Shown one piece after another: positions 178 to 59,893 of a stretch of DNA of 64,000 nt; within the stretch, counting starts at the first letter, position 1, and each line of letters starts with the position of its first letter. The stretch lies in contig PDSY01000016.1 in NCBI GenBank assembly GCA_002747105.1, positions 28,473 to 92,472 on the forward strand, written 5' to 3'. Below the pieces are notes generated by a model that was not told where the DNA came from, made no database searches, and saw only the letters and a program-made list of their open reading frames with translations. The stretch comes from Flavobacteriales bacterium (GTDB taxonomy: Bacteria > Bacteroidota > Bacteroidia > Flavobacteriales > Weeksellaceae). A program made the translations under genes and the position numbers.

Positions 178-969
178 CTAAATAATTAAATCCACCACAA
201 AGCCTTCGTGGCTTCTTATATTAATAAAATAGCCTTCATCAAAAACAAGGTATTGACCTTTAATGCCTTTTAGAACGCCTTTATACTCTCGTACTTTCTC
301 CAAGGTAAAAGAATTGATTTTCTCTGTTAATTGATAAGGGAAATTTAATTTTACAACCTCTTGGTTTTCTAATCTAAAATCTTCATAATCTTTTGGAAAG
401 CAATCGTTTAGTTTTTCGTCAATAGGATGCCAATCCAATTCTGCTGAACCATCATCTTGGAGCATTCTTTTATAATGGGTTTTATCGGCAAAATGTTCTT
501 TTAGGGAAACCTCTATCATTCCTGCTTCGTAGCGGTTGTTGGTTCTGGCGATAGGTTTGGCTTGGGTAGCGCCTTGGTCTATCCATCTGGTAGGCACTTG
601 GTGTTCTCGTGTTACCCCTACTTTAAACCCTCCTGTATAGGCGATGTACACTATATGTGGCGTGAGCTGAATTTGTTTTTCGATAGCTAAATCTCGCTCT
701 TCTTCCCCGAGGTGAGCTTTTGATAGTTCTGGTCTAATAATAGATTCGCTGGCGTAAGGACTTTCAAAAAAACATTTTTTACAAAATCCCATTCGGAAGA
801 TTTTTTCTGTAGAATCACAATTAACGCATTGGTAGCCGATATGTTTAAGCTGTATTGGCTTTCCTATAAGTTGGTTGATGCTGATTAAATCCCCAGATAG
901 ATTCAAATGATATTGAATAGGATTCCCGATTTCAGTGGTCATTTTTTTGATTTGTCCTTGAAAGTGCAT
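178..969 (-). CDS. DUF2797 domain-containing protein
   Basis: Cys-rich segment 'CVNCDS...FCKKCFFESP' followed by 'YIAYTGGFKVGVTR', as I recall for DUF2797. Start trimmed to the ATG at 969 (MHFQG); the ORF-track extension runs into the divergent promoter region. Confidence 0.7.
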   Translation of the reverse strand: MHFQGQIKKMTTEIGNPIQYHLNLSGDLISINQLIGKPIQLKHIGYQCVNCDSTEKIFRMGFCKKCFFESPYASESIIRPELSKAHLGEEERDLAIEKQIQLTPHIVYIAYTGGFKVGVTREHQVPTRWIDQGATQAKPIARTNNRYEAGMIEVSLKEHFADKTHYKRMLQDDGSAELDWHPIDEKLNDCFPKDYEDFRLENQEVVKLNFPYQLTEKINSFTLEKVREYKGVLKGIKGQYLVFDEGYFINIRSHEGFVVDLII

Positions 970-1020
970 AAAATATTTTTGGTAAAAATAAGTATTTCCG
1001 ACTAAATGAAAATAAATCAT

Positions 1021-1028
1021 TACTTTTG
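1021..1028 (+). promoter_or_regulatory. Bacteroidota-type -7 box (TAnnTTTG)
   Basis: 'tacttttg' lies 20 nt upstream of the epimerase ATG. Confidence 0.45.
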
Positions 1029-1047
1029 TTGGGCAAAAATTTCACAA

Positions 1048-2082
1048 ATGAATTATTTAGTTACAGGAGGAAGTGGATTTATAGGTTCGCATTTGGTAGA
1101 GAAATTATTGAAAAACGGACATTCTGTCATCAATATTGATAATTTTGACAATTTTTATGATTACCAAATTAAAGTTAAAAATACTTTAGCATCAACTGCT
1201 CAAAAACCTGAGTTTAAATTCAATGAGAAAAAAAAGGATATTAATCACCTGATTGATTTAACTAAATCCAATGATTATCAGTTGTATAACACCGATATTC
1301 GAGAGGTAAAGGACTTGAGGAATATCTTTGAAAAACACAAAGTAGATGTGATTATTCATTTGGCTGCATTGGCAGGTGTTCGCCCATCGATAGAGCGACC
1401 TTTGGATTATCAACAGGTAAATGTACAAGGAACGATGAATCTTTGGGAGTTGGCGAAAGATTTTAAAGTTAAAAAATTCATATGTGCTTCTTCATCAAGT
1501 GTTTATGGTAATAATAAAAAAGTGCCCTTTGCTGAAACTGATACAGTAGATAGACCGATTTCTCCTTATGCTGCGACTAAAAAATCTTGTGAAATCATCG
1601 GACATACTTATCATCATTTGTATGATATGGATATGATGTTCTTGCGATTTTTTACCGTTTATGGACCAAGGCAAAGACCAGATTTAGCCATTCATAAATT
1701 CACTAAACTGATTGATAGTCAGCAAGAAATACCATTCTATGGAGATGGGAATACAGCGAGAGACTATACTTTCGTAGAAGATATTATTGACGGCGTGATG
1801 AAATCTATTCGCTATATTGAGGAACATACTGGAGTTTATGAGATTGTTAACCTTGGTGAAAGTGAGGTGATTACCCTTAATGAAATGGTCAAAACAATAG
1901 AAGAAACCTTGGGTAAAAAAGCCATTAAAAATAAACTTCCAATGCAAGCGGGAGATGTACAAATTACCAATGCTGATATTACCAAAGCCAAGACCTTAAT
2001 AGGTTATCAGCCAAGTACCAACTTCCAAAATGGCATAAAAAAGTTTGTGGAATGGTTTTTGAGTAATAAAGATGAAAAATAA
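1048..2082 (+). CDS. NAD-dependent epimerase/dehydratase (UDP-glucuronate 4-epimerase-like SDR)
   Basis: Rossmann motif 'VTGGSGFIGSH', catalytic 'YAATKKSCE', and 'RFFTVYGPRQRPDLA' typical of extended SDR sugar epimerases. Start set at the ATG 1048 (MNYLVTGG). Confidence 0.85.
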   Translation: MNYLVTGGSGFIGSHLVEKLLKNGHSVINIDNFDNFYDYQIKVKNTLASTAQKPEFKFNEKKKDINHLIDLTKSNDYQLYNTDIREVKDLRNIFEKHKVDVIIHLAALAGVRPSIERPLDYQQVNVQGTMNLWELAKDFKVKKFICASSSSVYGNNKKVPFAETDTVDRPISPYAATKKSCEIIGHTYHHLYDMDMMFLRFFTVYGPRQRPDLAIHKFTKLIDSQQEIPFYGDGNTARDYTFVEDIIDGVMKSIRYIEEHTGVYEIVNLGESEVITLNEMVKTIEETLGKKAIKNKLPMQAGDVQITNADITKAKTLIGYQPSTNFQNGIKKFVEWFLSNKDEK

Positions 2083-2128
2083 TCATTAAAATTGTGTGAG
2101 AAATGGCTTTTTTTCCTGCCTAATTTTT

Positions 2129-2136
2129 TACATTTG
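2129..2136 (+). promoter_or_regulatory. Bacteroidota-type -7 box (TAnnTTTG)
   Basis: 'tacatttg' lies 18 nt upstream of the DUF2795 ATG. Confidence 0.45.
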
Positions 2137-2153
2137 CAAAAAATAGATAAATT

Positions 2154-2375
2154 ATGTATTGGACATTAGAATTAGCTTCTTATTTAAGTGACGCTCCTTG
2201 GCCTATGACAAAGGCAGAGTTGATAGATTATGCGATTAGAACTGGAGCTCCAATGGAAGTAGTAGAAAATCTTCAAGCCATTGAAGATGAGGGAGAGATC
2301 TACGAATCTATACAAGAGATATGGCCAGATTATCCTACCGATGAAGATTTTCTGTGGAATGAAGATGAATATTAG
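2154..2375 (+). CDS. DUF2795 domain-containing protein
   Basis: 73-aa acidic protein. 'PMTKAELIDYAIRTGAPMEVVENLQAIED' resembles the DUF2795 family. A TAnnTTTG box lies upstream and a terminator hairpin downstream. Confidence 0.65.
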   Translation: MYWTLELASYLSDAPWPMTKAELIDYAIRTGAPMEVVENLQAIEDEGEIYESIQEIWPDYPTDEDFLWNEDEY

Positions 2376-2380
2376 AACCA

Positions 2381-2410
2381 AAAACAGGCGGATAAATGCT
2401 GTCTGTTTTT
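2381..2410 (+). terminator. rho-independent terminator after the DUF2795 gene
   Basis: 11-bp stem (two G-U pairs), 7-nt loop and a T-run. Confidence 0.55.
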
Positions 2411-2474
2411 ATGTATTCAATAAAATAATTAAGTAACCAAAACCATGCATTAGGGCATGGTAAAATAAAATGAT

Positions 2475-5400
2475 ATGAGTTTTTTAAATAAAATTCTGAA
2501 AAGTTTTTTGGGAGATAAAAACGCCAGAGACTTGAAAGAAGTAAAAAAAGTAGTTGGAAAAATAAAATCTGTAGAGCCTGATATTCAGAAACTATCAGAT
2601 AATGGATTGAGGGAGAAAACTGCCGAGTTTAAAGAAAAAATAAAAACGGCAACCAAAAAATTCACCGATGAAGTAGCGAAAATCAAAGAAGAAATTACCA
2701 CGACTACCGATATCGACAAAAAAGAAGCACTTTTTGGAAAAATAGATACCTTGAAAAAGGAATCTTATAAAGTAGAAGAAGAGGTTTTAGAATCTATTTT
2801 ACCAGAGGCTTTTGCTTTGATAAAGGAAACTGCAAGAAGATTGGCTCAGAATGGAGAAATCCGAGTGACAGCCAACGAGCAAGACCAATATTTAGCCGAA
2901 ACCAAAGATTTCGTTGATCTTCAAGGAGGAGAAGCTGTTTGGAAAAACGCTTGGGATGCCGAAGGAACAGACGTGGTTTGGGATATGACACATTATGATG
3001 TTCAGTTCATCGGTGGGGTAGTGCTTCATTCGGGGAAAATTGCCGAGATGCAAACAGGGGAAGGGAAAACCTTGGTAGGAACACTTCCTATTTACCTTAA
3101 TGCCTTGACAGGCAGAGGAGTGCATGTGGTTACCGTGAATGATTATTTGGCGAAAAGAGACTGTGCGTGGATGGGACCTTTATACCAATTCCACGGCTTA
3201 ACAATTGACTGTATCGATAAACATCAGCCTAATTCTGATGCGAGAAGAAAGGCGTATAATTGTGATATTACTTATGGTACTAATAACGAATTTGGTTTCG
3301 ATTATTTGAGAGATAATATGGTTTCTTCACCAGAAGAATTAGTGCAGAGAGAATTAAATTACGCCATTATTGATGAGGTGGATTCTGTATTAATTGATGA
3401 TGCGAGAACGCCTTTGATTATTTCGGGACCTGTACCTAATGGAGATAGACAAGAGTACGATGTCTTGAAACCATCTGTGGATAGAATTGTTCAGGTACAA
3501 AAGAAAACCATTACTAAAATTTTCAGTGAGGCTAAAAAATTAATCGCTTCAGGGAATACAAAAGAAGGAGGTTTCAAACTTTTACAAGCCTATAGAGGTT
3601 TACCAAAATCAAGACCTTTAATTAAGTTCTTATCTCAGAGTGGAAACAAGGCTTTACTTCAAAAAGTAGAAGCTCAGTATATGCAAGACAACAATAGAGA
3701 TATGCCGATTGTGGATAAAGATCTTTATTTTGTTATCGATGAAAAAAATAATCAAGTAGATTTAACAGACAAAGGAGTAGAATATATGTCTCAAGGGACA
3801 GATCCTGATTTCTTTGTACTTCAAGATATTGGAACCGAAATTGCAGAATTAGAAGCTCAAAACCTTCCAAAAGAAGAGGAATTTGAGAAGAAAGAAGAAT
3901 TGTTCAGAGATTTTGCAGTCAAGTCCGAGCGAGTTCACACGATGACCCAATTATTAAAAGCCTATACTTTATTTGAAAAAGATGATGAATATGTGGTCAT
4001 GGAAGGTCAGGTAAAAATCGTAGATGAATCCACGGGTCGTATTATGGAAGGAAGAAGATATTCAGATGGTCTTCACCAAGCCATAGAGGCAAAAGAAAAT
4101 GTAAAAATTGAGGCGGCTACTCAGACTTTTGCAACCATTACCTTACAGAATTATTTCCGTATGTATAATAAATTGGCGGGAATGACAGGTACTGCAGAAA
4201 CAGAAGCAGGAGAATTCTGGGAGATTTACGAATTAGATGTTATCGTTATCCCAACCAATAGACCAATTGCTCGTGATGATAAACATGATTTAGTTTATAA
4301 AACCAATCGTGAGAAGTATAATGCGGTTATCGAAGAGATTGAAAGAATCACTTCAGCAGGGAGACCTGTTCTATTAGGAACAACTTCTGTTGAGATTTCT
4401 CAGTTGCTTTCGAGGGCGTTGAGTATGAGGAAGATAAAGCACCAAGTATTGAATGCGAAGCTCCACCAAAAAGAAGCAGAAATTGTTGCAGAAGCAGGTA
4501 GAGCGGGAGTGGTAACCATCGCCACCAATATGGCGGGTCGTGGTACAGATATTAAACTTTCTGATGAAGTTAAAAAAGCAGGAGGTTTAGCGATTATCGG
4601 TACAGAAAGACACGATTCAAGGCGTGTAGATAGACAGTTGAGAGGTCGTGCTGGTCGTCAAGGAGACCCAGGAAGTTCTCAGTTTTATGTTTCGTTGGAA
4701 GATAACCTGATGAGGTTGTTTGGTTCGGAAAGAATCGCCAAAATGATGGATAAAATGGGACATAAAGAAGGAGAAGTAATTCAGCACTCTATGATTTCAA
4801 AATCCATCGAAAGGGCTCAGAAAAAAGTAGAAGAAAACAACTTTGGTATTCGTAAAAGATTATTGGAGTACGATGATGTGATGAATAAGCAAAGAGATGT
4901 TATTTATAAGCGAAGAAAGAATGCTTTATTCGGAGATCATTTGAAATATGATTTAGCCAATATGATTTTTGATGTTTCGGCGTCTATTGTAGAGACAAAT
5001 AAGGTGTCGAATATTTACAAAGATTTTGAATACGATGTGATTAAGCATTTTACAATGGATGCTCCTGTGAATGAGGAGGAATTCAAATCGAAAACGGTAC
5101 AGGAATTGACTGATATTCTTTACAAAGCAGCTGAAGAAGATTATCAACATAAGATGAGGTTGTTGAAAGAAAAGGCATTCCCAATTATTAAAAATGTTTT
5201 TGAAACGCAAGGAGAGATGTTTAAGCAGATTCAGGTGCCTTTCTCTGATGGTCAAAAAACAATAATGATTGTTACCGACTTAAAACAAGCGTACGAAAGT
5301 GAATGTCAGACGCTTATCAACGATTTTGAAAAGAATATTACTTTATCAATGATTGATGAGAATTGGAAAACGCATTTAAGAGAGATGGACGATTTAAGAC

Positions 5401-56596: not shown

Positions 56597-59500
56597 ATGT
56601 TTTATAACCATCAAGAAATTGAAAAAAAATGGCAACAGTTTTGGGAAGATAACCAAATTTTTAAAGCCGAAAAGATATCCGATAAACCAAAATATTATGT
56701 GTTAGATATGTTCCCTTATCCGAGTGGTGCAGGTTTACATGTTGGGCATCCGCTTGGTTATATCGCAAGTGATATTTATGCAAGGTACAAACGCCACAAA
56801 GGTTTTAATGTATTGCATCCACAAGGTTATGATAGTTTTGGACTTCCTGCTGAGCAATATGCTATTCAAACAGGTCAGCATCCTGCTATTACGACCGAAA
56901 CGAATATTGCCACTTATCGAAAACAATTGGATAGAGTAGGTTTTTCATTTGATTGGAGTAGGGAAGTGCGTACTTCTAATCCTGAGTATTATAAATGGAC
57001 GCAATGGATTTTTATTCAGTTGTTTAATTCTTGGTATAATAATGACACAAATAAGGCTGAAGATATTTCAACTTTAGTTGAGGTTTTTGAAAAAGAAGGG
57101 AATTTAAAAGTGAATGCGGTTTGTGATGAAGATGTTGTTGAATTTTCAGCTGAAGAATGGCAAAGTTTTGATGAGAATAAAAAACAGGAAATTTTATTAC
57201 AATATCGTCTCACTTATTTATCTGATACGGAAGTGAATTGGTGTCCAAAATTGGGAACGGTTTTAGCGAATGACGAGATTGTTAATGGCGTTTCTGAGCG
57301 TGGTGGACATCCTGTAGTTCGTAAAAAAATGACACAATGGTCCATGCGAATTTCCGCCTATGCACAAAGATTATTGGACGGATTATCAACATTAGATTGG
57401 ACACAAGCTTTGAAGGATAGTCAGGAAAATTGGATTGGACGAAGTGAAGGAGCGATGGTTTCATTCCCCCTTTCCCCCGAAGGGGAGAAAGACTCTAAAA
57501 TAGAGGTTTTGAATACTAATGAGTCCAAGAAAAAGTTTGGATATTTAACAGGAGGGAATAATTCTGCGATACTTATTAAGTACGCTCAAAAAATGAGAGA
57601 TTTCCCAACAGACGCAGAAAAAATACTTTGGGAGCATTTAAAATCAAAAAAAACAGGATATAAATTTCGCCAACAACATTTGATTGGTGATTTTATTGCA
57701 GATTTTGTTTGTCTATCAAAAAGGTTAATCATAGAAATAGATGGTGGTTATCACGATGATGTAGAACAACAAGTTTTGGATGAAGAAAGAACCGCTCAAT
57801 TAAAAGTTTTAGGTTTTGAGGTTGTTAGGTTTAAAAATGAAGAAGTTATTGGTGATTTAGATGGGGTTTTACATAAAATATCAAAAATTCTTTCTACAAA
57901 AATGGAAGTTGAATTAGATCATGATGTAACGCAGAATCAATCATTGTTCTCCCCTTCGGGGGAAAGGGGGATTGAAGTTTTCACCACACGCCCTGACACT
58001 ATTTTCGGAGTGTCATTTATGACGCTTGCACCAGAACACGAATTGGTTGCTAAAATTACAACAGAAGAACAAAAAGCTGAGGTGGAGGCTTATATTGAAG
58101 CAACCGCAAAACGCTCGGAGCGAGATAGAATGGCAGATGTGAAAACCATTTCAGGAGTATTTACGGGAGCGTATGCGATTCACCCATTTACAGGTGAAGA
58201 GATTCCGATTTGGATTGGTGATTATGTGTTGGCAAGTTACGGAACAGGTGCTGTAATGGCTGTTCCTGCGGGTGATGATAGAGATTATGCCTTTGCGAAG
58301 CACTTTAATATCCCGATTAAAAATATTTTTGACGGAGTGGATATTTCAGAACAGGCATATACCGATAAATCAACAAAAACGCCATTGATGAATTCTGGGT
58401 TTTTAGACGGATTAACGGTTAAAAAAGCCATGAAAACCGTTATTTACGAAATGGAAAAACAAGGTATTGGTTACGGTAAAATCAACTATCGTTTGCGTGA
58501 TGCCGTTTTTAGTCGTCAAAGATATTGGGGAGAACCATTTCCTGTTTATTATAAAGACGGAATGCCACAAATGATTGATGAAAAACATTTGCCTATTCGT
58601 TTGCCAGAAGTAGAGAAATATTTACCAACGGAAGACGGAAAGCCACCATTAGGAAATGCAGAAGTTTGGGCTTGGGATACGGATAAAAACGAGGTGGTAA
58701 GTAATGATAAAATCAACAATATGACTATTTTTCCGTTAGAACTCAATACAATGCCAGGATGGGCAGGGAGTTCGTGGTATTTTAATCGTTATATGGACGC
58801 AGGAAATGCTGAAGAGTTTGCAAGTAAAGAGGCGTTGAATTATTGGAAAGAAGTTGATTTGTATATTGGTGGAAGTGAACACGCTACGGGGCATTTGTTG
58901 TATGCTCGTTTTTGGCAAAAATTCTTGTTTGATAAAGGTTTAGTGCCTACAGATGAGTTTGCTAAAAAACTGATTAACCAAGGAATGATTTTGGGAACTT
59001 CGGCGTTTGTATATCGTGAAGAGGGAACCAATAAATTCCATTCCAAAGGATTGATAGAAGGTAAGAAAATGCAACCAATTCACGCACATGTATCTTTTGT
59101 AGGGGCAGGAGATGTTTTAGATGTAGAAAAATTTAAGGCTTGGAGAGAAGACTTCAAAGATGCCGAATTTATTTTAGAGGACGGAAAGTATATCGTTGGT
59201 CGTGAGGTTGAAAAAATGTCTAAATCAAAATACAATGTCGTTAATCCTGATGATATTTGTGAGGAATATGGTGCTGATTGCCTAAGGTTATACGAGATGT
59301 TTTTAGGACCTTTGGAGCAATCAAAACCTTGGAATACACAAGGGTTGAGCGGTGTTTATGGTTTCTTGAAGAAATTTTATAATTTGTACTTTAATGGAGA
59401 TAATTTTGAAGTGTCAGAGGAAGAACCAACCAAAGAAGAGTATAAAATTTTGCATACCTTGATTAAGAAATTCAATGAAGATGTAGAAAACTTTTCTTTT

Positions 59501-59893
59501 AATACATCGGTGTCTTCTTTTATGATTGCTGTGAACGAATTACAGAAGAAAAAATGTAACAAAAGAGCCATTTTAGAGCCTTTGGCAGTAATTATTTCCC
59601 CTTACGCTCCACATATTTGTGAGGAGTTATGGCAAAATTTAGGACATACTACTTCTATTGAATATCAGGCTTTCCCTGAGTTCGAAGAAAAACATTTGGT
59701 GGAAAGTACAAAAACCTATCCTATTTCATTTAATGGAAAAATGCGTTTCACCTTAGATTTACCAATGGATATGCCAAAAGACGAAATTGAAAAGATGGTA
59801 ATGGCAGATGAAAGAACACAAAAGCAACTTGCAGGACGAGAACCTAAAAAAGTAATTATCGTTCCAGGGAAGATTGTGAATATTGTGGGGTAA
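56597..59893 (+). CDS. leuS: leucine--tRNA ligase carrying an in-frame DUF559 insertion
   Basis: HIGH 'HVGHPLGY', 'ENWIGRSEGA', CP1 entry 'TTRPDTIFG', and KMSKS 'KMSKSK'. A continuous 1098-aa ORF, about 160 aa longer than expected because of the insert at aa ~292-463. Confidence 0.95.
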   Translation: MFYNHQEIEKKWQQFWEDNQIFKAEKISDKPKYYVLDMFPYPSGAGLHVGHPLGYIASDIYARYKRHKGFNVLHPQGYDSFGLPAEQYAIQTGQHPAITTETNIATYRKQLDRVGFSFDWSREVRTSNPEYYKWTQWIFIQLFNSWYNNDTNKAEDISTLVEVFEKEGNLKVNAVCDEDVVEFSAEEWQSFDENKKQEILLQYRLTYLSDTEVNWCPKLGTVLANDEIVNGVSERGGHPVVRKKMTQWSMRISAYAQRLLDGLSTLDWTQALKDSQENWIGRSEGAMVSFPLSPEGEKDSKIEVLNTNESKKKFGYLTGGNNSAILIKYAQKMRDFPTDAEKILWEHLKSKKTGYKFRQQHLIGDFIADFVCLSKRLIIEIDGGYHDDVEQQVLDEERTAQLKVLGFEVVRFKNEEVIGDLDGVLHKISKILSTKMEVELDHDVTQNQSLFSPSGERGIEVFTTRPDTIFGVSFMTLAPEHELVAKITTEEQKAEVEAYIEATAKRSERDRMADVKTISGVFTGAYAIHPFTGEEIPIWIGDYVLASYGTGAVMAVPAGDDRDYAFAKHFNIPIKNIFDGVDISEQAYTDKSTKTPLMNSGFLDGLTVKKAMKTVIYEMEKQGIGYGKINYRLRDAVFSRQRYWGEPFPVYYKDGMPQMIDEKHLPIRLPEVEKYLPTEDGKPPLGNAEVWAWDTDKNEVVSNDKINNMTIFPLELNTMPGWAGSSWYFNRYMDAGNAEEFASKEALNYWKEVDLYIGGSEHATGHLLYARFWQKFLFDKGLVPTDEFAKKLINQGMILGTSAFVYREEGTNKFHSKGLIEGKKMQPIHAHVSFVGAGDVLDVEKFKAWREDFKDAEFILEDGKYIVGREVEKMSKSKYNVVNPDDICEEYGADCLRLYEMFLGPLEQSKPWNTQGLSGVYGFLKKFYNLYFNGDNFEVSEEEPTKEEYKILHTLIKKFNEDVENFSFNTSVSSFMIAVNELQKKKCNKRAILEPLAVIISPYAPHICEELWQNLGHTTSIEYQAFPEFEEKHLVESTKTYPISFNGKMRFTLDLPMDMPKDEIEKMVMADERTQKQLAGREPKKVIIVPGKIVNIVG
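57470..57499. repeat. left terminal inverted repeat of the leuS insert
   Basis: 'ttcattccccctttcccccgaaggggagaa'. It contains its own CCCC-GAA-GGGG mini-hairpin. Confidence 0.9.
57957..57986. repeat. right terminal inverted repeat of the leuS insert
   Basis: 'ttctccccttcgggggaaagggggattgaa' is the reverse complement of the left repeat, with one mismatch. Confidence 0.9.

What the first reader, a model, noticed from the sequence alone, without database searches (positions are those of the whole stretch)
57470..57986. DUF559 endonuclease-like element, bounded by 30-nt inverted repeats, inserted in frame into the essential leuS gene
The LeuRS ORF is continuous for 1098 aa. Between the conserved 'ENWIGRSEGA' and the CP1-entry motif 'TTRPDTIFG' it carries about 160 extra residues, where bacterial LeuRS normally has about 17-20. 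The interior reads 'AEKILWEHLKSKKTGYKFRQQHLIGDFIADFVCLSKRLIIEIDGGYHDD...LGFEVVRFKNEEV'. This is the DUF559 / Vsr-like PD-(D/E)XK pattern, and the D...E-x-D acidic positions are intact.

The insert is flanked by G/C-run inverted repeats at 57470..57499 and 57957..57986. They pair at 29/30 positions, with a perfect 22-nt core 'ccccctttcccccgaaggggag'. That is very conspicuous in AT-rich DNA, and each arm encodes a mirror-like peptide (PLSPEGE / SPSGERG). About 170 codons stay open in an AT-rich genome, so the frame appears to be selected.

This looks like a selfish nuclease cassette living inside an aminoacyl-tRNA synthetase as a tolerated in-frame domain, conceptually like the in-frame insertions of Rickettsia palindromic elements but with a protein-coding cargo. 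It is not an intein or an intron. I am not aware of this architecture having been described.
Basis: partly seen in the sequence, partly recalled or inferred. Interest (0 to 1): 0.8.

Follow-up and report, generated by a model that had tools for sequence, protein, structure and literature searches.

The report
Nuclease cassette embedded in leucyl-tRNA synthetase
A compact DNA cassette, a DUF559 nuclease gene bracketed by GC-rich palindromic arms, sits in frame inside the essential leucyl-tRNA synthetase gene and is translated as an extra domain; the same loop is occupied in over a hundred public LeuRS sequences, nearly all of those with a named organism from Bacteroidota, in a pattern that looks like a homing element needing neither intron nor intein.

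Summary
leuS (56597..59893) is one 1098-aa ORF. It carries a 168-aa insert (57467..57970) with a DUF559 domain (E=3e-32). The insert is bounded by a 30-nt inverted repeat, 29/30 complementary, at 57460-57489 and 57947-57976.

The insert is not peculiar to this genome. It fills the same loop in 64 of 80 related leuS loci, always in frame. It evolves under purifying selection (dN/dS 0.11-0.29).

All stages of an invasion-decay-loss cycle are present:
- empty sites with a short loop, often the conserved DGHD type
- cassettes with intact active sites and arms
- catalytically dead, arm-less relics
- a deletion footprint

Cassette and host trees conflict with strong bootstrap support. Free-standing relatives at argG|argC, ispF and ispG, and one on a cyanobacterial plasmid, have the same arm-ORF-arm anatomy. 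The closest solved folds are a DUF559 protein and the homing endonuclease I-Bth0305I.

My reading: this is a selfish Vsr-like/EDxHD-type nuclease cassette tolerated as a domain insertion, and it spreads between leuS alleles by homing-like gene conversion. The role of the arms is unresolved. I found no published description. I class it as a new variant of a known kind.

The parts
56597..59893 (+). leuS, leucine-tRNA ligase, one continuous 1098-aa ORF that hosts the cassette
   Evidence: ORF. TIGR00396, 903 bits against a cutoff of 548; aligns to T. thermophilus LeuRS 1H3N up to residue 237 and again from residue 241.
57460..57489 (+). 5' arm: TTCATT-CCCCC-TTT-CCCCC-GAA-GGGGAG-AA. It contains a local hairpin (TCCCC/CGAA/GGGGA) plus an upstream C-tract. 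It is translated as (S)F-PLSPEGE-K.
   Evidence: It is identical over 26 nt to the 5' arm of the same cassette variant in contig L118.
57467..57970 (+). The whole insert relative to empty-site alleles: LeuRS aa 291-458, 168 aa. It replaces the short loop seen in empty alleles (8 aa; DVDGHDAK in Tenacibaculum).
57490..57577 (+). N-terminal linker, predicted disordered. It includes the conserved G-Y-[LM]-T-G-G-N-N-S motif (57539-57565), which is shared by most leuS cassettes.
   Evidence: motif. (pLDDT below 50-66 over this stretch).
57578..57892 (+). DUF559 / Vsr-like PD-(D/E)XK nuclease domain. Active-site codons: D369 57701-57703, E380 57734-57736, D382 57740-57742, H386 57752-57754, D395 57779-57781.
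   Evidence: PF04480, E=3e-32. (3HRL, 1e-21). (model core pLDDT above 90; Foldseek 3HRL TM 0.87, I-Bth0305I TM 0.78). (invariant residues present).
57893..57946 (+). C-terminal linker: the end of the last helix plus a predicted disordered stretch, ...STKMEVELDHDVTQNQSL.
57947..57976 (+). 3' arm: TT-CTCCCC-TTC-GGGGG-AAA-GGGGG-ATTGAA, the reverse complement of the 5' arm. It contains a local CCCC-UUCG-GGGG hairpin. It is translated as F-SPSGERG-IE.
   Evidence: In the RNA fold the two arms close a long stem (z=-5.0).
57971..58000 (+). The host sequence resumes: IEVFTTRPDT, the strand that leads into the Thr-rich motif of the CP1 editing domain.
   Evidence: PF13603 editing domain from aa 456..

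Best explanation
The segment 57460-57976 is a compact mobile cassette. It has a GC-rich palindromic arm, a short spacer, a DUF559 (Vsr-like, EDxHD-type PD-(D/E)XK) nuclease ORF, and the reverse-complement arm.

**Shown**
- It lies in frame in the first beta-hairpin loop of the LeuRS CP1 editing domain.
- It is kept open and evolves as a protein. The arms read as Pro/Gly/Ser-rich stretches that contain no stop codon in the frame used. The stretches between the arms and the nuclease core are predicted to be disordered linkers.
- The same loop is filled in many Bacteroidota.
- Cassette phylogeny conflicts with host phylogeny.
- Empty, intact, decayed and deleted states coexist among close relatives.

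**Inferred**
- The nuclease cuts or nicks leuS alleles that lack the cassette, or cuts at the arm palindromes, when such DNA meets a filled allele after uptake or conjugation.
- Recombinational repair from the filled allele copies the cassette in.
- An essential, conserved gene therefore serves as a safe, always-expressed home without any splicing.
- After fixation the nuclease and arms decay (the Polaribacter and Tenacibaculum relics) and may be deleted. The site can then be re-invaded, as in a homing cycle.

In this window the cassette looks functional: the active site is intact and the arms are 29/30 complementary.

**Unresolved**
The arms are clearly under constraint, but their job is not known. 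They could be a recognition or cleavage substrate, a DNA-level boundary, or an RNA stem.
For: 1. **Cassette identity.** PF04480 matches at E=3e-32. [quoted passage not shown] There is a weak PADLOC 'homing endonuclease' hit. Steczkiewicz 2012 places Vsr, DUF559 and I-Bth0305I in one clade.
2. **Same anatomy elsewhere.** Arm-ORF-arm units occur between argG and argC (L081, L111-114; 11 contigs read carry this protein, and the four places shown all lie directly upstream of argC, two of them with argG called upstream), at the 5' end of ispF (L082), at the 3' end of ispG (L083), and on a Synechocystis plasmid (L117).
3. **Translation.** All 64 filled leuS loci are in frame without stops. Insert dN/dS is 0.11-0.29, against 0.03-0.12 for the host flanks.
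4. **Nuclease function is selected.** D/E/D/H/D are kept in 38-40 of 40 arm-bearing leuS inserts, as they are in 119-120 of 120 database homologs, most of them free-standing. All are lost in 24 of 24 arm-less relics.
5. **Horizontal behaviour.**
 - The window's closest LeuRS relatives (84-85% identity in the flanks) are empty sites with the loop DVDGHDAK or similar, plus one deletion footprint.
 - The closest filled relative, L110, has different arms.
 - The variant with the same arms (L118) sits next to a clearly more divergent leuS fragment.
 - Host and insert identities correlate poorly (r=0.47; for example host 86% with insert 39%, or host 65% with insert 68%).
 - Bootstrapped conflicts: host L034+L046 at 100% against a cassette clade at 98% that excludes L046; host L031+L066 at 99% against cassette L029+L033+L066 at 99%.
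6. **Arm constraint.**
 - The window and L118 arms are identical at 26/26 and 29/30 positions, while the interior is about 75% identical.
 - The arm loops co-vary between the two arms: AAT/AAT, AGC/AGC and AAA/AAA in L033, L066 and L029.
 - G/C runs persist in a 34% GC genome.
7. **Loss.** L069 equals the first 5 plus the last 11 residues of a class-b allele.
Against: - No cleavage activity or target has been measured.
- The roughly 125-aa cassette protein lacks the separate N-terminal DNA-binding domain that gives I-Bth0305I its long target site, so it is unclear how site specificity would arise.
- Classical homing endonuclease genes need no inverted repeats. The arms therefore point to something extra, such as structure-specific cutting, transposition or an RNA role.
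- The NJ tree places nearly all leuS inserts together, apart from the free-standing proteins (no bootstrap). That also fits one ancient insertion followed by recombination of leuS segments between species.
- Many loci are MAG contigs, so some incongruence could come from binning or assembly chimeras.
- The 80 loci were ranked by similarity to a filled query, so 64/80 overstates the true frequency.
- Purifying selection on catalytically dead relics shows that the domain can persist without nuclease function. Selection on class-a active sites could therefore be for a host benefit.
Confidence: 0.6

Rival explanations
1. The cassette is a palindrome-associated mobile element in the manner of RAYT/REPIN, not a target-site-specific homing gene. 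The DUF559 nuclease recognises the arm hairpins or a cruciform. It mobilises both the cassette and solo arm units, which insert wherever they are tolerated, including in frame in coding loops. This overlaps with the best explanation and may be the general mechanism, with the leuS lineage as a site-bound special case.
For: - Every cassette examined, at five different kinds of locus and in two phyla, has the same C-tract/N3/C-tract/loop/G-tract arms in inverted orientation.
- Solo arm-like units lie in frame at other positions of leuS in at least 14 related loci. In L059 the solo is identical to that locus's own 3' arm.
- The arms are far better conserved than the ORF.
- The arms evolve in concert.
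Against: - The lineages are strikingly site-faithful: leuS loop, argG|argC, ispF. Free transposition would not predict that.
- No other arm or DUF559 copy occurs in the 64-kb window.
- A metagenome scan for the arm 20-mer found only solos with no DUF559 nearby, and they may be unrelated hairpins.
- No PD-(D/E)XK single-domain protein is known to act as a transposase on its own (own knowledge).
Confidence: 0.25
2. The insert is an old, vertically inherited, lineage-specific LeuRS domain that has been co-opted for a host function, such as nucleic-acid binding, regulation or quality control. The arms merely encode linkers. The patchy distribution reflects repeated loss.
For: - The insert is widespread in Bacteroidota LeuRS.
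- leuS inserts group together in the NJ tree.
- Purifying selection acts even on the catalytically dead class b (dN/dS 0.13-0.26). This argues that at least the relic is constrained as a protein.
Against: - Many empty sites in distant lineages keep an 8-9 aa loop of the [DKA][VI]DGH type. A clean deletion of an insert that replaced that loop could not regenerate it.
- The one clear deletion leaves a 16-aa footprint.
- There are strongly supported host/cassette incongruences.
- Identical cassette anatomy occurs outside leuS.
- Nucleotide-level conservation and co-variation of the arms go beyond what the linker peptides require.
Confidence: 0.2
3. The segment is removed or skipped at the RNA or translation level. 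The 30-bp stem formed by the arms would bring the ends together for cleavage and ligation, or for ribosome bypass, so mature LeuRS would lack the insert.
For: The arms pair as a long stem in the minimum-free-energy fold of the mRNA segment (-154.6 kcal/mol, z=-5.0). GC hairpin elements that ribosomes bypass are known in yeast mitochondria (own knowledge).
Against: - The frame is open across both junctions in 64 of 64 filled loci, and dN/dS is well below 1 in that frame.
- Class-b inserts have no arms at all yet stay in frame.
- No intron or ribozyme family matches.
- A hop of about 500 nt is far beyond known bypassing.
- No minus-strand ORF exists, so inversion is also excluded.
Confidence: 0.03
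4. The insert is an assembly or binning artefact: a chimeric join of a DUF559 gene into leuS.
For: The window derives from a MAG: an identical protein is annotated 'MAG: leucine--tRNA ligase [Flavobacteriales bacterium]'. Repeated arms could in principle mislead assemblers, and contig L118 may be such a case.
Against: The same in-frame architecture is present in complete or isolate genomes of many cultured species, including Cellulophaga baltica, Zunongwangia profunda, Formosa agariphila KMM 3901, Polaribacter and Capnocytophaga, and in dozens of independent assemblies.
Confidence: 0.01

Closest known systems
EDxHD homing endonucleases (prototype I-Bth0305I, in the recA group I intron of Bacillus phage 0305phi8-36; PMC3239194)
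   Same: - Both have a Vsr-like PD-(D/E)XK catalytic fold. It is the second-best structural match (3R3P, TM 0.78, prob 1.0).
- Both are placed in the same PD-(D/E)XK clade as DUF559 (PMC3424549).
- Both live inside conserved housekeeping genes.
- The patchy distribution and the gain-decay-loss cycle fit a homing lifestyle.
   Different: - There is no intron or intein around the cassette; the ORF is simply read through as part of the host protein.
- There is no separate N-terminal DNA-binding domain.
- The cassette is bounded by GC-rich palindromic inverted repeats, which homing endonuclease genes do not have.
- Activity and target are untested.
Rickettsia palindromic elements (RPEs): selfish palindromic repeats inserted in frame into protein-coding genes (own knowledge; Ogata et al. 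2000)
   Same: - Palindromic DNA is tolerated in frame in surface loops of essential proteins.
- Solo arm units occur in frame at several leuS loops in relatives.
- The elements are GC-rich in an AT-rich genome.
   Different: - RPEs carry no ORF, whereas here the palindromes bracket a nuclease gene that is itself translated within the host protein.
- The phylum and the repeat sequence are different.
RAYT/REPIN systems: REP-associated tyrosine transposases flanked by inverted REP sequences (own knowledge; see also PMC3733652 and PMC6006769 listed)
   Same: A single small nuclease gene is flanked by two palindromic repeat units in inverted orientation. Related solo units are dispersed elsewhere. 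The arms evolve in concert with the gene.
   Different: - The enzyme is a PD-(D/E)XK (DUF559) nuclease, not an HUH/Y1 transposase.
- The cassettes are embedded in coding sequence and translated.
- Dispersal of solos within the same genome is not demonstrated here.
Inteins carrying homing endonucleases
   Same: Both are an in-frame insertion of a nuclease-bearing selfish element in a conserved, essential gene, at a conserved site, with a patchy distribution.
   Different: - There is no Hint/splicing domain.
- There is no Cys/Ser/Thr at the first residue or at +1, and no terminal His-Asn (the junctions are F|P...G|I).
- After the roughly 105-aa DUF559 match, the rest of the 168-aa insert is mostly predicted-disordered linker and gives no Hint match. 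The protein is presumably not spliced.
Free-standing or in-frame-fused homing endonuclease ORFs and mobile GC clusters of AT-rich fungal mitochondrial genomes (own knowledge)
   Same: In both, an AT-rich genome carries endonuclease ORFs fused in frame to host genes, associated with mobile GC-rich palindromic clusters.
   Different: - Those are LAGLIDADG or GIY-YIG enzymes in organelles.
- No fixed arm-ORF-arm unit is described there.
- There is no bacterial chromosomal counterpart that I know of.

Membership tests
DUF559 (Pfam PF04480; Vsr-like PD-(D/E)XK) | HMM match above the curated gathering score | tested here: met
   111 bits against a cutoff of 20.6, E=3.2e-32, covering 104 of 109 profile positions. 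NCBIfam PRK09767 matches at E=9e-19 but falls below its equivalog cutoff.
DUF559 (Pfam PF04480; Vsr-like PD-(D/E)XK) | Family-invariant residues (T, E, W, Q, D-F, E-x-D, H, D, R, N) are present | tested here: met
   All invariant columns of an 81-sequence alignment are present in the window protein. In LeuRS numbering they are D369, E380, D382, H386 and D395.
DUF559 (Pfam PF04480; Vsr-like PD-(D/E)XK) | Fold matches the solved DUF559 structure | tested here: met
   The model core has pLDDT above 90. Foldseek best hit is 3HRL, TM 0.87, rmsd 1.6 Å, 40% identity. The sequence hit to 3HRL is 1e-21.
EDxHD homing endonuclease family (I-Bth0305I) | Vsr-like catalytic domain with the composite E/D/H/D catalytic residues | tested here: met
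   3R3P is the second-best fold match (TM 0.78, prob 1.0, 24-26% identity). E380, D382, H386 and D387/D395 are present. No sequence-level hit to 3R3P at E<0.01.
EDxHD homing endonuclease family (I-Bth0305I) | Additional N-terminal DNA-binding domain that recognises a long target | tested here: not met
   Only about 37 mostly disordered residues precede the catalytic domain in the insert. Free-standing relatives are 113-134 aa in total.
EDxHD homing endonuclease family (I-Bth0305I) | Encoded within a self-splicing intron or intein, or free-standing | tested here: not met
   The insert is read through in frame as part of LeuRS. There is no intron family match and no Hint domain. Relatives at other loci are free-standing or fused.
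EDxHD homing endonuclease family (I-Bth0305I) | Cleaves the cassette-less allele next to the insertion site and is copied in by repair | not testable with these tools
   Only indirect evidence is available: patchy distribution, empty sites among the closest relatives, and bootstrapped host/cassette incongruence.
Intein | Hint splicing domain; Cys/Ser/Thr at residue 1; His-Asn at the C-terminus; Cys/Ser/Thr at +1 | tested here: not met
   The junctions read ...VSF|PLSPEGE and SPSGERG|IEVF. No Hint or intein Pfam hit. Junction residues vary among 64 loci without any conserved nucleophile.
Group I / group II intron | Ribozyme core recognisable; the ORF is not required to be in frame with both exons | tested here: not met
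   No Rfam match at E<=5 other than noise. Both junctions are in frame in 64 of 64 loci.
In-frame palindromic repeat elements (RPE-like) | Short palindromic repeat, multiple dispersed copies, inserted in frame in coding genes | tested here: inconclusive
   Arm-like solo units lie in frame at other leuS positions in at least 14 related loci. No second copy exists in this 64-kb window, and no whole genome was available for a census.
RAYT/REPIN-type palindrome-associated nuclease | Nuclease gene flanked by inverted palindromic repeat units | tested here: met
   Seen in the window and in L081-L083, L110-L118 and L027-L066.
RAYT/REPIN-type palindrome-associated nuclease | The enzyme is an HUH/Y1 single-strand transposase | tested here: not met
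   The enzyme is a PD-(D/E)XK DUF559 domain.
Bacterial leucine-tRNA ligase (TIGR00396) | Equivalog HMM above cutoff, with catalytic, editing and anticodon-binding domains all present | tested here: met
   903.5 bits against a cutoff of 548.4. PF00133, PF13603 and PF08264 are all present. Host flanks have dN/dS 0.03-0.12.

The most novel reading that the evidence does not exclude
DUF559 cassettes may be an unrecognised class of bacterial mobile element found in Bacteroidota and Cyanobacteria. Each is a single-domain PD-(D/E)XK nuclease plus a pair of co-evolving GC palindromes. The arms have been shaped to be translatable as stop-free Pro/Gly linkers, so the element can live inside the reading frames of conserved housekeeping genes (the leuS loop, the argC and ispF N-termini, the ispG C-terminus) without any splicing. 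The nuclease would recognise the arm hairpin or cruciform and would drive both cassette homing and the spread of solo in-frame palindromes. This would give the large orphan family DUF559 its first biological role.
Probability: 0.3. Interest if true: 0.85.

Novelty: new variant of a known kind. Interest (0 to 1): 0.72.

Why it matters
DUF559 is a large, widespread family with no assigned biology. These data tie it to a concrete, testable lifestyle.

Homing elements are thought to need an intron or an intein to survive inside essential genes. This one appears to survive by being a well-behaved domain insertion with built-in linkers. If so, a new domain can enter an essential enzyme directly, and LeuRS in many marine Flavobacteriia carries a probably active DNA nuclease on its editing domain.

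The system also lays out the full invasion, decay and loss series in cultured, tractable bacteria such as Cellulophaga, Zunongwangia, Formosa, Polaribacter and Tenacibaculum. The homing-cycle model and the role of the palindromic arms can therefore be tested experimentally.

On the practical side, annotation pipelines currently name some of these proteins 'class I tRNA ligase family protein' or even 'DUF559 domain-containing protein'.

Tried and rejected
- **Metagenome scan for the arm 20-mer** (CCCCCTTTCCCCCGAAGGGG). It gave 26 single hits in varied contexts, none with a DUF559 nearby by tblastn.
- **Rfam at a permissive threshold** over 57300-58150. It returned only noise (E above 1). Intron and ribozyme readings were dropped.
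- **Full-length LeuRS AlphaFold model** from a 35-sequence alignment. Mean pLDDT was 61 and pTM 0.36, too poor to say how the insert sits relative to CP1. I used it only to note that the insert core is folded and its linkers are disordered. No fold search was run on it.
- **Intein reading.** Rejected on junction residues and the absence of a Hint domain.
- **Programmed inversion between the arms.** Rejected: no minus-strand ORF spans the segment, so a flip would destroy leuS.
- **Phage and plasmid vehicles**. Only distant DUF559 homologs were found (31-47% identity), none from Bacteroidota. The one useful result was the Synechocystis plasmid cassette, which has the same arm anatomy.
- **Anti-phage defence membership** (PADLOC). 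It gave only weak, nuclease-fold-level hits.
- **Literature**. No paper links DUF559 to LeuRS, to inverted repeats, or to in-frame insertion. The library lacks most subscription-journal papers, so absence is not proof.
- **Sigma-70 promoter scan for an internal promoter.** Considered but not run, because Bacteroidota promoters are not covered by that tool.


Full report

Yes. The window (33.9% GC) holds a single uninterrupted leuS ORF at 56597..59893, 1098 aa. It passes the NCBIfam equivalog model for bacterial LeuRS with 903 bits against a cutoff of 548.

Between ...NWIGRSEGAMVSF and IEVFTTRPDT... it has 168 residues (nt 57467-57970). Insert-free relatives have 8-9 residues there.

Pfam DUF559 (PF04480) matches LeuRS aa 328-432 at E=3e-32. 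The solved DUF559 protein 3HRL matches at 1e-21.

The inverted repeat is 30 nt long and 29/30 complementary. Its perfect 22-nt core occurs exactly twice in the window, against zero matches in 100 shuffles. Its four C5/G5 tracts are the only clustered ones in 64 kb.

**2. What the insert is**

A model of the insert built on 81 homologs has a confident core (pLDDT above 90) flanked by low-confidence linkers. Its best structural matches are:
- 3HRL, a DUF559 protein, TM 0.87
- the catalytic domain of the homing endonuclease I-Bth0305I (3R3P), TM 0.78, probability 1.0
- E. coli Vsr, which trails

This agrees with the published placement of Vsr, DUF559 and I-Bth0305I in one PD-(D/E)XK clade (PMC3424549) and with the 'EDxHD' homing family defined on I-Bth0305I (PMC3239194). 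All family-invariant residues are present in the window protein: D369, E380, D382, H386, D395 and others.

It is not an intein. There is no Hint domain, the junctions are F|P and G|I, and the residues outside the roughly 105-aa nuclease match are mostly predicted disordered. It is not a known intron or ribozyme.

**3. It is a discrete cassette, not just a domain**

Most homologs of the insert are free-standing proteins of 113-134 aa. At every such locus I opened, the gene is bracketed by the same kind of arms: C-tract, about 3 nt, C-tract, loop, G-tract on the 5' side, and the reverse complement on the 3' side.

- **argG|argC.** The cassette lies between argG and argC in L081. The four places shown for a second protein (L111-114) all lie directly upstream of argC, with argG called upstream in two of them; 11 contigs were read for that protein. 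The called argC ORF starts right after the DUF559 stop and reads through the 3' arm.
- **ispF.** The cassette is directly 5' of ispF. The DUF559 ORF runs through the 3' arm into IspF (L082).
- **ispG.** At the 3' end of ispG, the IspG frame runs through the 5' arm into DUF559 (L083). The two arms are identical over 33 nt.
- **Cyanobacteria.** One cassette lies on a Synechocystis plasmid (L117).

The unit 'arm - spacer - DUF559 - arm' is therefore a recurring module. It repeatedly ends up fused in frame to conserved housekeeping genes. The arms translate into Pro/Gly/Ser/Glu-rich peptides (PLSPEGE, PPSGVRG, LPPAPSEGGG, PLSIGEGLGVR...) with no stop in the frame used at any locus I examined.

**4. 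The leuS site across genomes**

A scan of one genome per species with the window LeuRS returned 80 loci. They were ranked by similarity to a filled query, so the sample is biased towards filled sites. Most named loci are Flavobacteriaceae. A few are labelled Sphingobacteriales, Pedobacter or Paludibacteraceae, and one MAG is labelled Arenicella, which is not a Bacteroidota genus.

| State | Loci |
|---|---|
| Empty loop, 8-9 aa (e.g. DVDGHDAK, KIDGHDEF, AIDGHNQK) | 13 |
| Short loop, 16-17 aa | 3 |
| DUF559-homologous insert, 126-212 aa | 64 |

Every one of the 64 inserts is in frame without a stop.

Among the 120 best LeuRS homologs in the protein database, about 112 carry the insert. They include cultured Cellulophaga baltica, Zunongwangia profunda, Formosa agariphila, Polaribacter, Capnocytophaga, Maribacter and Mariniflexile. 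One is even named 'DUF559 domain-containing protein'. The window protein itself is a deposited MAG protein (P0121).

By alignment to T. thermophilus LeuRS, the insert sits between residues 237 and 241, in the hairpin ...ILFPVE-GKE-VRIPVFTTRPDT. This is the first hairpin of the CP1 editing domain, just upstream of the Thr-rich editing motif. The structural role is from my own knowledge of LeuRS.

**5. States of the insert**

- **Class a (40 loci, counting the window).** The arms are recognisable, and the catalytic D/E/D/H/D are kept in 38-40 of 40. That is the same conservation as in the 120 database homologs, most of them free-standing.
- **Class b (24 aligned loci plus the partial L077; Polaribacter, Tenacibaculum, Lutibacter and others).** These are AT-rich with no arms. 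The D of E-x-D is replaced, a 6-residue deletion removes the His, and two further invariant residues are changed, in 24 of 24.
- **Selection.** Both classes evolve under purifying selection in the LeuRS frame. dN/dS is 0.11-0.29, against 0.03-0.12 for 400 flanking host codons.
- **Loss.** L069 (Tenacibaculum sp. M341) has a 16-aa loop. It equals the first 5 plus the last 11 residues of a Polaribacter-type class-b insert, so it is a deletion footprint.

Together these give empty, intact, decayed and deleted states, which are the stages expected of a homing cycle.

**6. Vertical or horizontal?**

Evidence for horizontal movement:
- The short loop is the outgroup state: T. thermophilus has it and, from memory of the sequence, so does E. 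coli. Its conserved DGHD form persists in distant Flavobacteriaceae scattered through the host tree. A clean excision of an insert that replaced the loop could not recreate it.
- The window's closest LeuRS relatives (84-85% in the flanks) are empty sites plus one deletion footprint.
- The closest filled relative (L110, about 80%) has different arms and lacks the window's spacers.
- The one contig with the same cassette variant (L118) has arms identical at 26/26 and 29/30 positions and an interior about 75% identical. Its adjoining leuS part is clearly more divergent.
- Host and cassette identities correlate weakly (r=0.47). Extremes include host 86% with cassette 39% (L033/L035) and host 65% with cassette 68% (L039/L047).
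- In 100 bootstraps, the hosts of L034 and L046 are sisters at 100%, while a 98% cassette clade contains L034 and excludes L046. The host pair L031+L066 (99%) conflicts with the cassette clade L029+L033+L066 (99%).
- L002 and L046 combine a 5' arm of one type with a 3' arm and ORF of another, which suggests recombination between variants.

Evidence the other way: an NJ tree without support values puts nearly all leuS inserts together, apart from the free-standing proteins. The leuS cassettes are therefore probably one site-bound lineage that moves among leuS alleles, rather than repeated captures from the general pool.

**7. The arms**

- **Structure.** Each arm holds a local hairpin. In the window these are TCCCC-CGAA-GGGGA and CCCC-TTCG-GGGG. 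Each also has an outer tract that is complementary to the outer tract of the other arm.
- **RNA fold.** In the mRNA the two arms are predicted to close one long stem (z=-5.0).
- **Conservation.** Within a variant the arms are far better conserved than the ORF. They keep G/C runs in a 34% GC genome.
- **Concerted change.** The hairpin loops are AAT/AAT in L033, AGC/AGC in L066 and AAA/AAA in L029. Loop nucleotides do not pair within a local hairpin. This points to arm-to-arm complementarity or homogenisation rather than to two independent hairpins.
- **Exception.** In the large 'PILSFPKGEE...PPSGVRG' group the two arms have drifted apart, yet each keeps its own hairpin.
- **Solo units.** Solo units of the same design sit in frame at other leuS loops in at least 14 relatives. 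In L059 the solo is identical to that locus's own 3' arm.

I cannot tell whether the arms are nuclease substrates, recombination boundaries or RNA elements.

**8. Best explanation and rivals**

I favour a selfish EDxHD/Vsr-like nuclease cassette that persists in leuS as a tolerated domain insertion and spreads among leuS alleles by nuclease-stimulated gene conversion. It then decays and is lost (confidence 0.6).

The weak points are these. No activity has been measured. The cassette has no dedicated DNA-binding domain. The arms are something classical homing genes do not need.

- **RAYT/REPIN-like palindrome-mobilising mechanism (0.25).** This overlaps with the best explanation and may be the general mode of the family.
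- **Ancient co-opted LeuRS domain (0.2).** This fits the constrained dead relics. It does not fit the conserved empty loops, the incongruent trees, or the same cassette occurring outside leuS.
- **RNA-level removal or ribosome bypass (0.03).** The evidence is against it.
- **Assembly artefact (0.01).** The evidence is against it.

**9. Novelty**

The domain combination is visible in automatic annotations of many public genomes. Nine searches of the open-access library found no paper that mentions DUF559 together with LeuRS, inverted repeats or in-frame insertion. Only 25 papers mention DUF559 at all.

Conceptually it combines known things: homing endonucleases, in-frame palindromic elements, and palindrome-flanked nucleases. 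I have not seen that combination described, so I class it as a new variant of a known kind.

**Limits**
- The trees are NJ on short alignments.
- Many loci are MAG contigs.
- The locus sample is biased towards filled sites.
- No whole genome was available to count cassettes or solos, or to confirm that leuS is single-copy.

Noticed in passing
L028, L034, L046, L055, L059, L007, L022, L030-L032, L049, L051, L058, L062, L066 (within leuS, locus coordinates about 3250-3660 and 4390-4700): Solo copies of the arm unit (for example CCCCCAACCCCTCCGAAGGAGGGG) are inserted in frame at other LeuRS loops. They give peptides such as NSSPSGRSGG, ISPFGGDREGEQ and SNSSPSGRPGGE. In L059 the solo at 3251(+) is identical to that locus's own 3' arm.
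   Followed up: partly
L067, L069, L079 at about 2391-2420; L011 at 2766; L035 5' junction; L042 at 5810(+)/5858(-): A second, unrelated small repeat (GTCACTTCGAGCGCAGTCGAGAAG, read as VTSSAVEK) occupies the same LeuRS loop in several genomes. In L042 it also occurs as an inverted pair about 0.9 kb downstream of the leuS match. P0139, among the window's closest LeuRS relatives, has yet another 14-aa loop (KVGRGVALQRPYKN). This loop seems to be a hotspot for small insertions.
   Followed up: partly
L118 1-310 (metagenome contig, coverage 0.59): The cassette variant with arms identical to the window's is followed by the 3' part of leuS. It is preceded not by the 5' part of leuS but by a divergently oriented gene whose product, by my reading of the sequence, looks like the N-terminus of MnmG/GidA. 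This is either an assembly chimera at a repeated arm or a real rearrangement that splits leuS.
   Followed up: no
L081 2886-2960; L082 690-760; L083 580-640: At other loci the arms are also read as protein. The called argC ORF starts one base after the DUF559 stop and reads through the 3' arm (MNTIGTGAALSSLPSGRVRVGVLGAAGYTGG...). DUF559 runs without a stop into IspF. IspG runs without a stop into DUF559. It is unknown whether these fusions are made.
   Followed up: partly
Related LeuRS loci, after the motif GTSAF(V/A)Y (for example L002, L004, L033, L034, L041, L046, L055): A variable AT-rich insertion of up to about 95 aa is present in many Flavobacteriaceae LeuRS. It is absent from the window and from L063. 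I did not examine its origin.
   Followed up: no
L117 (Synechocystis sp. B12 plasmid CP101712.1, locus 924-3448): The cyanobacterial cassette lies between a short ORF annotated 'DUF1156 domain-containing protein' (175 aa) and a 434-aa hypothetical protein. The cassette may have interrupted a larger gene.
   Followed up: no
L088, L092, L098, L101 (metagenome hits to the arm 20-mer): Several unrelated low-GC contigs share the context GTTCC(A/G)AT(N)2-4 followed by CCCCTTCGGGGGAAAGGGGG. This suggests a separate conserved hairpin-containing motif not linked to DUF559.
   Followed up: no
L115 236-700: A cassette follows a yajC-like gene. Its ORF reads through the 3' arm into only the C-terminal ~90 residues of an NAD-dependent epimerase. 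This suggests a cassette-associated deletion or rearrangement.
   Followed up: no
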